From positions 1 to 41,392 of the IMG/VR virus record IMGVR_UViG_3300023223_001537: a stretch of 41,392 nucleotides of DNA; one strand, 5' to 3'. The first letter of the stretch is position 1; each line of letters starts with the position of its first letter. This DNA is from a virus. The notes below the pieces were generated by a model. That model was not told where the DNA came from. It made no database searches and was given only the letters and a program-made list of their open reading frames with translations. A program made the position numbers and the translations under genes. Shown piece after piece: positions 29,940 to 30,310 of this stretch.

Positions 29940-30310
29940 TGGGTTGAGATGACCGCTGGGATTAAACTTGTTATAACGAACAGTGGGGCTACATGAATGC
30001 GTTTATATCCGGTCCGGTGTGGGGATACATGTGGGTCATTAAACAAATGACTTGAAGCAGACACCGTACTTCTTCTTTCTGGGTTTATTATCATGAAAGG
30101 AGGGGGCCTTCCAGGTGACGGGCGTTTCCAATATGCTGAGGGAAACCAGATGAAGTTAAGATGCCTGAATTGCAGTACGACAGTCCTAGCGATAGCTTTG
30201 TCGACTGGGGGCTGTCGTCGTGAGCCTTTAGGCTCGGGGCGAATCCAATGTGATTGAAGGGATTGATGGGAGCGTGCGCTAATGCGTTCGCGACCTAGCA
30301 ATCACGTCCT
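29940..30310. ncRNA. Candidate structured RNA of about 370 nt, family and strand unknown
   Basis: A G+C-rich island in an AT-rich genome with no protein-like ORF in any frame. At least eight helices are listed in the findings section. The strand is undetermined. Confidence 0.4.

What the first reader, a model, noticed from the sequence alone, without database searches (positions are those of the whole stretch)
29940..30310. G+C-rich, helix-dense noncoding island of about 370 nt inside the head-gene module: candidate novel structured RNA
A stretch between the two small post-portal genes and the next coding ORF has no protein-like reading frame. The 125-aa minus-strand ORF is Arg/Pro/Ser-rich and lacks an RBS, and the best plus-strand ORF is 54 aa, also without an RBS. 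The stretch is visibly richer in G+C than its AT-rich flanks. Helices I could pair by eye: 29953..29958 with 29981..29986; 30015..30020 with 30061..30066, enclosing the hairpin 30035..30040 with 30046..30051; 30124..30129 with 30141..30146; 30177..30183 with 30212..30218; 30222..30226 with 30231..30235; 30272..30279 with 30284..30291; and 30250..30256 with 30299..30305, which encloses the previous hairpin. In addition, 30242..30246 can pair with 30260..30264, which gives a pseudoknot arrangement with the 30250/30299 helix. I see no match to tRNA, tmRNA, RNase P, 6S RNA, group II domain V or hammerhead cores. P22-type head modules normally have no such gap.
Basis: seen in the sequence. Interest (0 to 1): 0.75.

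Follow-up and report, generated by a model that had tools for sequence, protein, structure and literature searches.

The report
Orphan folded insert in phage cargo slot
The GC-rich "island" is a 511-base, strain-specific insert in a gene-swapping slot of a marine P22-like prophage; only its 3' half folds unusually well as RNA and it also carries a tiny lipoprotein-like gene, so it is an interesting but unproven lead, not an established new RNA.

Summary
The sequence facts hold. The stretch is locally GC-rich (0.50 against 0.34 in the flanks). It has no protein-like frame, no Rfam, tRNA or tmRNA match, and no protein homologue in any of six frames.

The "370-nt helix-dense RNA" reading is only partly right. 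The whole island folds no better than ordinary phage DNA (z -2.1). Four of the nine proposed helices, including the pseudoknot, have about zero ensemble probability.

A 238-nt sub-domain, 30105-30342 on the + strand, is exceptional. A 13-bp long-range stem closes four further helices, giving z -4.5, third of 412 scan windows.

Near-identical relatives settle the context. One has an empty site. Others carry unrelated protein genes of 84, 111, 135 or 148 aa at the same spot. The island is therefore a dispensable 511-nt cargo insert (29880-30390), flanked by a 9-nt direct repeat.

It opens a 35-codon prolipoprotein-like ORF, which arises in 0.1-2% of shuffles.

No homologue of the insert exists anywhere I could search, so covariation cannot be tested.

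My best guess (0.35) is a strongly folded small-ORF mRNA module. The rivals are a new ncRNA (0.22) and an inert remnant (0.28).

The parts
29498..29874 (+). Two tandem paralogous small genes (64 aa at 29498-29692, 62 aa at 29686-29874) that form the left flank of the slot.
   Evidence: ORFs. The only family similarity is weak, to Cse60. The same genes occur in L075, L076 and L077, 96.6% identical to the window in L076.
29871..29879 (.). Left copy of the 9-nt direct repeat ATAATAAAA. It contains the TAATAA double stop of the 62-aa gene.
   Evidence: The empty-site relative L076 has this 9-mer once (L076 314-322), and it aligns to both window copies.
29880..30390 (+). The 511-nt strain-specific cargo insert. 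This is the real extent of the feature.
   Evidence: Window 29558-29879 aligns to L076 1-322, and window 30391-30705 aligns to L076 314-626, with nothing in between. The same slot holds an 84-aa ORF in L075, a 148-aa ORF in L077, a 135-aa ORF in L001 and a 111-aa ORF in L011.
29880..29938 (+). AT-rich cassette leader, shared with the leader of the unrelated 148-aa cargo gene of L077. It includes three 9-nt-spaced T-rich repeats at 29884-29916.
   Evidence: Pairwise alignment of window 29860-29938 with L077 2240-2307. Repeat family D1.
29940..30104 (+). It is moderately GC-rich and has no structure beyond chance.
   Evidence: For 29920-30099, z is +0.23, and 118 of 200 shuffles fold at least as well.
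30105..30342 (+). Predicted 238-nt RNA domain: a closing stem, P1, around four helices, P2 to P5.
   Evidence: MFE is -99.6 kcal/mol and the centroid is almost the same as the MFE structure. z is -4.46 with 0 of 200 shuffles as stable; the minus strand gives z -1.82. It ranks third of 412 sliding windows. There are 82 pairs: 44 GC, 27 AU, 11 GU. With G-U pairs forbidden, z is -3.5. The same fold forms in the 538-nt context.
30105..30118 (+). P1, 5' strand (GGCCUUC.AGGUGA). It pairs with 30329-30342.
   Evidence: Inverted repeat I1. Base-pair probability 0.97-1.00.
30329..30342 (+). P1, 3' strand (UCAUCU.GAAGGCC).
30119..30167 (+). P2: 30119-30127 pairs with 30159-30167. Its mostly open apical region carries the SD and the AUG.
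   Evidence: Base-pair probability 0.96.
30179..30216 (+). P3 hairpin: 30179-30194 pairs with 30199-30216.
Evidence: Base-pair probability 0.77-0.96.
30217..30240 (+). P4 hairpin: 30217-30226 pairs with 30231-30240. The loop is UUUA.
Evidence: Base-pair probability 0.76-0.99.
30242..30326 (+). P5, a long irregular hairpin: 30242-30279 pairs with 30284-30326. The loop is UAAU.
Evidence: Base-pair probability 0.79-0.99.
30138..30141 (+). Shine-Dalgarno core GAGG, 8 nt upstream of the ATG at 30150.
   Evidence: Sequence and SD scan. The neighbouring real genes use the same spacing.
30150..30257 (+). 35-codon ORF, MKLRCLNCSTTVLAIALSTGG|CRREPLGSGRIQCD. It has a prolipoprotein-like signal peptide and lipobox.
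   Evidence: It meets the PROSITE lipobox rule. Only 4 of 1122 ORFs in the window do, and one of those is an obvious real lipoprotein. In 3000 dinucleotide shuffles of the island such an ORF arises in 2% (any start), 0.7-1% (ATG) and 0.13-0.17% (ATG plus SD). No peptide homologue was found.
30282..30467 (+). Weak second ORF candidate (61 aa; SD GGAG with a 9-nt spacer), in the same frame. It overlaps the next gene by 55 nt.
   Evidence: No homologues. The long overlap argues against it.
30391..30399 (.). Right copy of the direct repeat (ATAATAAAT), followed by the conserved RBS of the 63-aa gene.
30413..30604 (+). Conserved 63-aa gene, forming the right flank of the slot.
   Evidence: Present in L001, L011, L075, L076, L077 and L078.

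Best explanation
The feature is a dispensable 511-nt cargo cassette (29880-30390). It sits in a hypervariable accessory slot between the portal-proximal small genes and a conserved 63-aa gene of a temperate, marine P22-like phage.

Its body is not a conventional gene. I think it most likely acts as a compact, strongly folded stretch of the + strand late transcript. A 13-bp long-range stem (P1) clamps a 238-nt domain. The open tip of P2 presents the Shine-Dalgarno sequence and the AUG of a 35-codon ORF. That ORF encodes a prolipoprotein-like or small membrane-targeted peptide.

In short, I read it as a structured small-ORF mRNA module. Its architecture recalls small-membrane-peptide and type I toxin mRNAs, rather than a free-standing 370-nt ncRNA.

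Shown: the insertion boundaries and the dispensability of the insert; the absence of long-ORF coding signal; the statistical excess of predicted structure in 30105-30342 on the + strand; and the presence and rarity of the SD-ATG-lipobox ORF.

Inferred: transcription by read-through from the late operon, translation of the ORF, export or lipidation of its product, and any functional link between the fold and the ORF.
For: - Cargo status. The empty-site relative L076 is 96.6% and 92.1% identical in the two flanks. Unrelated protein genes occupy the same site in L075, L077, L001 and L011. The insert is flanked by a 9-nt direct repeat, and its leader is shared with L077's cassette.
- Fold. z is -4.46 with 0 of 200 shuffles as stable; the centroid is almost the MFE structure; pair probabilities are 0.8-1.0. 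The domain ranks third of 412 unbiased windows. Protein cargos in relatives have z between -0.9 and +1.3. The + strand gives -4.46 and the - strand -1.8.
- ORF. An ATG at 30150 with GAGG and an 8-nt spacer. It passes the lipobox rule, which 4 of 1122 ORFs in the window pass. One of those four is an obvious real lipoprotein with ATG and SD, and the other two have TTG starts. The feature arises in 0.13-2% of composition-matched shuffles.
- Accessibility. The SD and AUG lie in the largely unpaired tip of P2.
- Frame. The frame shared by this ORF has no TAA or TAG in 147 codons (P = 0.008 in shuffles).
- Neighbourhood. Two of the neighbouring-lineage cargos in this slot (L001, L077) are also exported proteins with signal peptides.
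- All genes nearby are on the + strand and no terminator intervenes.
Against: - The predicted mature peptide is only 14 aa, which is very short for a lipoprotein. Position -3 of the lipobox is Thr, which is unusual.
- The hydrophobic core is too weak for a classical type I toxin helix.
- I noticed the ORF first and tested it afterwards, so its p-value is optimistic.
- A ribosome translating 30150-30257 would melt P2 to P5, so the fold and the ORF may be unrelated.
- No promoter, terminator or antisense RNA gene was found.
- The peptide has no homologue.
- The ORF explains only 108 of the 511 nt. The 5' 225 nt remain without a role.
- Single-sequence folding z-scores near -4.5 occur in about 2.4% of windows of this phage, mostly in coding DNA.
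Confidence: 0.35

Rival explanations
1. Inert remnant. The insert is functionless DNA left by cassette turnover in a recombination-prone slot: a scrambled or foreign noncoding fragment. On this view the fold, the lipobox ORF and the stop-poor frame are all coincidences of a G+U-rich composition.
For: - The insert is a singleton. No homologue turned up in the phage or plasmid databases, in 78 related loci, in five viral-collection scans (four DNA patterns and one protein-anchored scan), or in six-frame protein search.
- It is dispensable, since an empty site exists in L076.
- There is no promoter or terminator.
- The 5' half is unstructured.
- The hairpin loops lack the classic stable tetraloops.
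- Comparable z-scores occur in about 2.4% of ordinary windows.
- All three 'signals' were found after the fact.
Against: - Three independent features, each at about the 1% level, coincide in one 240-nt stretch: the fold, the SD-ATG-lipobox ORF and the depletion of TAA/TAG in one frame.
- A decayed gene should keep some 3-base periodicity or some detectable homology, or else should have accumulated TAA and TAG stops. It shows none of these.
- Compact phage genomes purge junk quickly.
- GC of 0.52 in an AT-rich context would decay unless the DNA is recent or under selection.
Confidence: 0.28
2. Novel free-standing structured ncRNA. A + strand RNA of about 240 nt (30105-30342), made of P1 and four further helices P2-P5, is carried as RNA cargo in a slot that otherwise holds protein morons. 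It would act in trans, for example as a decoy or regulator in phage-host conflict.
For: - It is noncoding by periodicity and by homology.
- Its GC is locally elevated, which is the classic GC-rich intergenic-region signature used to discover bacterial ncRNAs (PMC6429828, PMC11109978).
- It has a strand-specific, well-defined fold with z -4.46, unlike the protein cargos in the same slot.
- Only 13% of its pairs are G-U, below the 17% seen in shuffles, and the Watson-Crick-only fold is still significant.
Against: - It matches none of the 4227 Rfam families.
- There are no homologues, so covariation support is zero.
- No promoter, terminator or defined ends were found.
- It would leave the SD-ATG-lipobox ORF at the P2 tip (0.13-2% by chance) and the frame-specific lack of stops as coincidences.
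- Every other cargo seen in this slot is a protein gene.
Confidence: 0.22
3. DNA-level element or artefact. Either a non-autonomous transposable element (MITE-like) that inserted with an 8-9-bp target duplication, or a chimeric metagenome assembly.
For: - An 8/9-nt direct repeat flanks the insert, and the empty site holds a single copy.
- The insert is noncoding and rich in inverted repeats that remain significant with G-U pairs forbidden on both strands: z -3.5 and -3.1.
- By eye, the two ends show weak inverted similarity (about 11 of 16).
Against: - The left end of the insert is homologous to the leader of a different, protein-coding cassette in L077, and that cassette has no matching right end. 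The ends therefore behave as shared cassette junctions, not as transposon termini.
- L075's cargo is likewise flanked by a repeated RBS-type motif. Duplicated stop-RBS junctions are thus a general property of this slot.
- There is no second copy in the window, in 78 related loci, or in the phage and plasmid databases.
- The strong asymmetry between + and - strands once G-U pairs are allowed favours an RNA-level reading.
- An assembly artefact could not be tested.
Confidence: 0.08

Closest known systems
Phage 'morons' and accessory cargo in hypervariable slots of lambdoid or P22-like late operons (for example lambda bor and lom). This comparison rests on my own knowledge of the literature.
   Same: - It is a strain-specific, dispensable insert between conserved late genes.
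- Close relatives carry alternative, unrelated cargos, or nothing, at exactly the same junction.
- Its GC differs from the flanks.
- It lies in a temperate phage that has an integrase and an attP site.
   Different: - Classical morons are protein genes with their own promoter and terminator.
- Here there is no long ORF, no predicted promoter and no terminator.
- The only plausible product is a 35-aa peptide and/or an RNA.
Type I toxin mRNAs such as hok. These are small hydrophobic ORFs inside a highly folded mRNA that is closed by a long-distance 5'-3' interaction (PMC9841398; PMC2887945).
   Same: - The ORF is shorter than 60 codons, with a basic N-terminus, an uncharged stretch and a charged tail.
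- It is embedded in a very stable fold closed by a 13-bp long-range helix.
- It sits in a prophage accessory position and has no homologues.
   Different: - No antisense RNA gene was found, and there is no match to the Hok Pfam family.
- The SD is not sequestered by the clamp; it is displayed at a helix tip.
- The peptide looks more like a lipoprotein signal than a transmembrane toxin.
- There is no mok-like overlapping frame.
Orphan candidate structured ncRNAs found as long, GC-rich intergenic regions in AT-rich genomes (the GC-IGR and DIMPL approach: PMC6429828, PMC8723152, PMC11109978).
   Same: It was detected by the same logic: an unusually GC-rich, long intergenic region with no coding signal and a good predicted fold.
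   Different: - Those candidates are accepted only when several homologues show covariation. Here not a single homologue exists.
- Only about half of the region is structured.
Very small bacterial prolipoproteins (Lpp, entericidins). This comparison rests on my own knowledge.
   Same: A basic N-terminal region (MKLR), a short hydrophobic core, a lipobox-like STGG|C, and the Cys at position 22.
   Different: - The mature part would be only 14 aa.
- Position -3 is Thr rather than Leu, Val or Ile.
- There is no homologue and no experimental evidence.

Membership tests
Any described RNA family (Rfam 15, 4227 models) | A covariance-model match at the gathering score, or at least a suggestive E-value. 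| tested here: not met
   There is no hit in the island at gathering score or at E<=10 with permissive filters over 29700-30750. This covers tRNA, tmRNA, RNase P, 6S, group I and II introns, riboswitches, ribozymes, GOLLD, ROOL, HEARO and OLE.
tRNA / tmRNA | A cloverleaf, or a tRNA-like domain with a tag ORF. | tested here: not met
   ARAGORN finds none in the window. Rfam finds none in the island.
Group I (or other self-splicing) intron | It interrupts a host gene whose exons join into one ORF. | tested here: not met
   Both flanking genes are complete. The 62-aa and 63-aa genes are directly adjacent and intact in the empty-site relative L076.
Validated structured ncRNA (comparative standard) | Base pairs supported by covariation among homologues. 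| not testable with these tools
   No homologue was found. This rests on blastn against phages and plasmids; nhmmer, blastn and covariance model R1 over the 74 related loci held at that point, plus blastn and tblastx over the four loci fetched later, L075-L078; and four pattern scans of viral contigs.
Structured ncRNA (single-sequence criterion) | A fold significantly more stable than dinucleotide shuffles and than the genomic background. | tested here: inconclusive
   Met for 30105-30342 on the + strand: z -4.46, rank third of 412 windows. Not met for the island as drawn (z -2.1) or for its 5' half (z +0.2). About 2.4% of ordinary windows do as well.
Type I toxin-antitoxin (hok/sok-like) | A small hydrophobic toxin ORF of fewer than 60 aa. 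| tested here: inconclusive
   A 35-aa ORF with an SD is present. Its hydrophobic stretch is weak, and there is no Pfam Hok match.
Type I toxin-antitoxin (hok/sok-like) | An antisense or divergent sRNA antitoxin gene with its own promoter and terminator. | tested here: not met
   Only two 9/12 promoter-like sites occur on the minus strand, at chance frequency, and there is no terminator on either strand.
Type I toxin-antitoxin (hok/sok-like) | A long-distance 5'-3' pairing that closes the mRNA. | tested here: met
   P1, 30105-30118 with 30329-30342, has probability 0.97-1.0. This is a prediction only.
Bacterial prolipoprotein | A signal peptide with a lipobox (the PROSITE PS51257-type rule): K or R in the first 7 residues, an uncharged stretch, [LIVMFWSTAG]2-[LIVMFYSTAGCQ]-[AGS]-C, and the Cys at position 15-35. 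| tested here: met
   ORF 30150-30257 passes the rule, as do 4 of 1122 ORFs in the window. It arises in 0.13-2% of shuffles.
Bacterial prolipoprotein | Lgt/LspA-dependent processing and a functional mature domain. | not testable with these tools
   The mature part would be 14 aa. No homologue exists.
MITE / non-autonomous transposon | A target-site duplication, terminal inverted repeats and multiple copies. | tested here: not met
   An 8/9-nt direct repeat is present. However, the left end is a leader shared with a different cassette in L077, the terminal inverted repeats are only weak by eye, and no second copy was found anywhere searched.
Retron msr-msd RNA | An adjacent reverse transcriptase gene. 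| tested here: not met
   The neighbours are 62-aa and 63-aa ORFs. No RT domain appears among the ten larger ORFs scanned. Not every ORF of the window was scanned.
Phage accessory cargo ('moron') | Presence/absence polymorphism at a fixed junction among close relatives, with alternative cargos. | tested here: met
   L076 is empty. L075 carries an 84-aa gene, L077 a 148-aa gene, L001 a 135-aa gene and L011 a 111-aa gene.
Phage accessory cargo ('moron') | Its own promoter and terminator. | tested here: not met
   No sigma-70-like promoter on the + strand and no terminator lie within 29875-30412.

The most novel reading that the evidence does not exclude
The 238-nt domain 30105-30342 is a genuine RNA gene of a new class: P1 closing four further helices (P2-P5). 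It would be carried as 'RNA cargo' in a phage slot that otherwise exchanges protein morons, and would act in trans in phage-host conflict, for example as a decoy or regulator. On this reading the embedded ORF is incidental or gives the RNA a second function.
Probability: 0.2. Interest if true: 0.6.

Novelty: new member of a known kind. Interest (0 to 1): 0.3.

Why it matters
If the fold or the mini-ORF is functional, it would show that a cargo slot in the head module of marine P22-like prophages can carry RNA-level or micro-peptide payloads as well as ordinary protein morons. Gene callers and homology searches miss both kinds completely; the source annotation left this stretch blank.

The natural allelic series (empty site, protein cargos, this insert) gives a ready-made experimental contrast.

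As things stand, it is a single-sequence prediction from one metagenomic contig. Its main value is as a well-delimited lead, and as a caution: GC-rich 'helix-dense' islands should be judged against genomic background and against close relatives.

Tried and rejected
1. Known RNA families. Rfam at gathering score and at E<=10, plus ARAGORN, gave nothing.
2. Pseudogene of a known protein. The 125-aa minus-strand ORF had no hit. A concatenated six-frame query against 5.8 billion protein clusters had no hit at E<=10. Pfam and PHROGs gave nothing, and tblastx against all related loci gave nothing.
3. Derivation from the cargo genes of relatives. There is no nucleotide similarity or purine/pyrimidine-coded similarity to the L077 or L001 cargos, apart from the shared 60-nt leader.
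4. TGA-recoded gene. Frame 3 is interrupted only by four TGA codons (29994, 30048, 30255, 30264). However, the phage uses TGA as a stop in 9 of 43 genes, frame 3 shows no codon periodicity, and there are no homologues. I rejected it as a gene. The lack of TAA and TAG stops remains unexplained.
5. Homologue hunting.
   - Portal-anchored scans of viral, genome and metagenome contigs, and look-ups of the closest portal relatives (83, 79, 78, 72, 66% identity and below). These and the later look-ups brought the total to 78 loci, and none contains the island.
   - Four exact or degenerate DNA patterns against viral contigs found nothing.
   - A scan anchored on the 62-aa gene found nothing.
   - Covariance model R1 matched only itself.
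6. phmmer of the 35-aa peptide against 1.84 billion representatives gave two composition-driven hits with no alignable stretch.
7. Transposon (MITE) reading. Rejected because the left end is a leader shared with another cassette.
8. Promoters drawn by eye for the domain (TATTAT at 30086) and for the leader. Neither passes the scan, so I make no claim for them.
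Full report
**Context.** The window is a temperate P22-like phage with GC 0.40.
- The genes around the finding are: large terminase (25973-27355), portal (27357-29498), two small paralogous ORFs of 64 and 62 aa (29498-29874), a 538-nt gap, a 63-aa ORF (30413-30604), a 185-aa ORF, scaffold (31358-32308) and coat (32324-33583).
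- An integrase gene (6266-7390) is followed by an attP-like region containing a tRNA fragment.
- The closest relatives come from marine and saline metagenomes. The portal's nearest neighbours are 83, 79, 78 and 72% identical.

**Checking the observation.** The sequence facts hold.
- GC is 0.496 for 29940-30310, against 0.34-0.36 in the flanks.
- All nine helices are complementary as stated.
- There is no Rfam, tRNA or tmRNA match, even at E<=10.
- The stretch is noncoding by two independent tests.
  - It has no 3-base periodicity. Chi2 is 5.5 over 435 nt, while all 73 coding windows of this phage score at least 9.6. For 30150-30467, chi2 is 3.2, below all 92 coding controls.
  - It has no protein homologue in any of the six frames among 5.8 billion clusters, nor in Pfam or PHROGs.
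- The source annotation called no gene here, although it called both tiny flanking genes.
- 'Helix-dense beyond chance' is not true of the island as drawn. For 29940-30310, z is -2.1 on + and -1.9 on -, against a phage-wide background of mean -0.6, sd 1.3. The 5' half has z +0.2.
- The island is not the GC maximum of the window.

**What is structured.**
- On the + strand the domain folds to -99.6 kcal/mol. The centroid is almost identical to the MFE structure and pair probabilities are 0.8-1.0.
- The helices are P1 (13 bp), P2 (30119-27/30159-67), P3 (30179-94/30199-216), P4 (30217-26/30231-40) and P5 (30242-79/30284-326).
- z is -4.46, with 0 of 200 shuffles as stable. The minus strand gives only -1.8.
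- With G-U pairs forbidden, both strands stay at z -3.1 to -3.5. G-U pairs make up 13% of the pairs, fewer than in shuffles.
- In an unbiased 248-nt sliding scan of the + strand, the window starting at 30101 ranks third of 412. About 2.4% of windows reach z <= -4.46.
- The fold is therefore unusual, but not unique within the phage.

**Relatives settle the genomic nature of the feature.** None of the portal-anchored loci contains anything similar by nhmmer, blastn, tblastx or a covariance model built from the domain. The key came from the 90%-identity clusters of the two flanking mini-genes.
- Contig L076 carries the 62-aa gene followed directly by the 63-aa gene.
- Window 29558-29879 aligns to L076 1-322 at 96.6% identity. 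Window 30391-30705 aligns to L076 314-626 at 92.1%.
- The 9-mer ATAATAAAA occurs once in L076. It occurs on both sides of the insert in the window, at 29871-29879 and at 30391-30399.
- The feature is therefore a 511-nt insertion or deletion polymorphism, 29880-30390.
- At the same junction, L075 carries an 84-aa ORF, L077 a 148-aa secreted protein, L001 that protein's 135-aa homologue, and L011 a 111-aa ORF. L078 has nothing there.
- The first 60 nt or so of the insert (29880-29938) are homologous to the leader in front of L077's unrelated cargo gene. The body (29940-30390) matches nothing.
- The slot is thus a cassette-exchange site with shared junctions. The island is dispensable cargo, and its ends are not transposon termini.
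- The protein cargos of relatives show no excess structure. Eighteen windows gave z between -0.9 and +1.3.

An ATG at 30150 is preceded by GAGG (30138-30141) with an 8-nt spacer, the same spacing as in the neighbouring genes.
- It opens a 35-codon ORF: MKLRCLNCSTTVLAIALSTGG|CRREPLGSGRIQCD.
- The ORF satisfies the PROSITE-type prolipoprotein rule. Only 4 of 1122 start-stop combinations in the whole window do, and the only other one with ATG and SD is an obvious real lipoprotein at 2955-3176 on the minus strand.
- In 3000 dinucleotide shuffles of the island, such an ORF appears in 2% (any start), 0.7-1% (ATG) and 0.13-0.17% (ATG plus SD).
- The SD and AUG lie in the largely open tip of P2.
- The frame of this ORF contains no TAA or TAG in 147 codons, only four TGA (P = 0.008 in shuffles). 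The phage does use TGA as a stop.
- The peptide has no homologue. Two hits from the exhaustive search were composition artefacts.
- I found these signals first and tested them afterwards, so the p-values are optimistic.

**Interpretation.** A purely inert remnant would require three independent coincidences of roughly 1% each in one 240-nt stretch. It also fits poorly with the absence of both residual codon periodicity and accumulated TAA/TAG stops.

A free-standing ncRNA explains the fold, the GC content and the lack of coding signal. It leaves the SD-ATG-lipobox ORF and the stop-free frame to chance. It has no promoter, no terminator and no homologue.

A structured small-ORF mRNA module explains most of the observations together:
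- a long-range clamp around a short ORF for a membrane-targeted peptide, in an accessory position of a prophage;
- an overall architecture resembling hok-type mRNAs, which are closed by a 5'-3' interaction (PMC9841398).

Membership in the type I toxin-antitoxin family is not supported. There is no antisense RNA gene and no Hok match, and the SD is displayed rather than sequestered. A 14-aa mature lipopeptide would also be unusually short.

My probabilities are:

| Explanation | Probability |
|---|---|
| Structured small-ORF module | 0.35 |
| Inert remnant | 0.28 |
| Novel ncRNA | 0.22 |
| DNA-level element or assembly artefact | 0.08 |
| Something else | remainder |

**Novelty and verdict.** The feature belongs to a well-known kind, swappable accessory cargo in a phage late operon. 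Its content is unusual: noncoding by standard criteria, with a strongly folded 238-nt core and a micro-ORF.

Nothing here meets the comparative standard used for new RNA classes found in GC-rich intergenic regions (PMC6429828, PMC11109978). Not one homologue could be found, and single-sequence stability is weak evidence by my own knowledge of the field.

Interest is modest (0.3). It is a cleanly delimited lead with a natural empty-site control, not a discovery.

Noticed in passing
window 7391-7861 (tRNA-like match at 7666-7727, minus strand): A GC-rich (0.45-0.49) noncoding region lies just after the integrase gene (6266-7390). It holds a 62-nt tRNA fragment (Rfam tRNA 31.6 bits; anticodon arm, T arm and 3' acceptor strand only; ARAGORN negative). 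It also has long direct repeats, including GGTTCACAAATGGTACACATA at about 7613 and 7795. This looks like an attP site that overlaps the 3' part of a host tRNA gene, with arm-type integrase sites.
   Followed up: partly
window 30611-30723 (promoter 30665-30694); also L001 about 9040-9135, L075 about 1155-1240, L076 about 530-620: A perfect sigma-70 consensus promoter (TTGACA-18-TATAAT) lies inside the head-gene module. It is preceded by two palindromes, TGTTTCACGTGGAACA and TTGACATGTCAA. The arrangement is conserved in relatives and sits upstream of a conserved 185-aa ORF of unknown function (30724-31281). It looks like an operator-controlled moron promoter inside the late operon.
   Followed up: partly
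window 29877-30467, + strand, frame of 29877: This frame is open for about 195 codons apart from four stops, all of them TGA (29994, 30048, 30255, 30264). There is no TAA or TAG in 147 codons (P = 0.008 in shuffles). Yet the frame has no codon periodicity and no homologue, and the phage uses TGA as a stop in 9 of 43 genes. This remains unexplained.
   Followed up: yes
window 33606-33636: A canonical intrinsic terminator (CTGTCCACCC-TTCG-GGGTGGGCAG followed by TTCTTTT) lies directly after the major capsid gene. It accounts for the most structured window of the sliding scan (33401, z -6.3).
   Followed up: partly
window 2955-3176, minus strand: A 73-aa ORF begins MKKFIFTFLIVLSGC, has ATG and an SD, and carries a textbook lipobox. 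It is probably a real small lipoprotein moron, perhaps of the superinfection-exclusion type, in the early or lysogeny region.
   Followed up: no
window 8101-8550 and 11201-11550, + strand: Other windows have very strong folding z-scores, from -4.6 to -6.2 with 20 shuffles. The first lies inside the 299-aa ORF 7862-8761, which has no Pfam match. The second covers the 287-nt intergenic gap 11233-11519, upstream of the 288-aa and 1307-aa ORFs.
   Followed up: no
window 29498-29874; L002 8116-8325; L075, L076, L077: Small 'KLFQ...IN.WI...WYG' proteins of 62-69 aa follow the portal gene, duplicated in tandem in the window, L075 and L077. They show only a faint resemblance to sporulation protein Cse60 (E about 0.1). 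They form a conserved post-portal mini-gene family of unknown role.
   Followed up: partly
L001 8117-8524 and L077 2312-2758: The alternative cargo in the same slot of two relatives is a 135-148-aa secreted protein (signal peptide, then a '...DAYYMDCEYV.VTVELVA.NYPQT.NIVIQNS...' core). It has no Pfam or PHROG family, and its 90%-identity cluster has a single member.
   Followed up: partly
window 10387-11232 and 23354-24574: The window holds two separate N6/N4 DNA methyltransferase genes (Pfam PF01555) and an ERF-family recombinase (4863-5621). The two very large ORFs, of 1307 aa and 648 aa (12386-18262), have no Pfam match.
   Followed up: no
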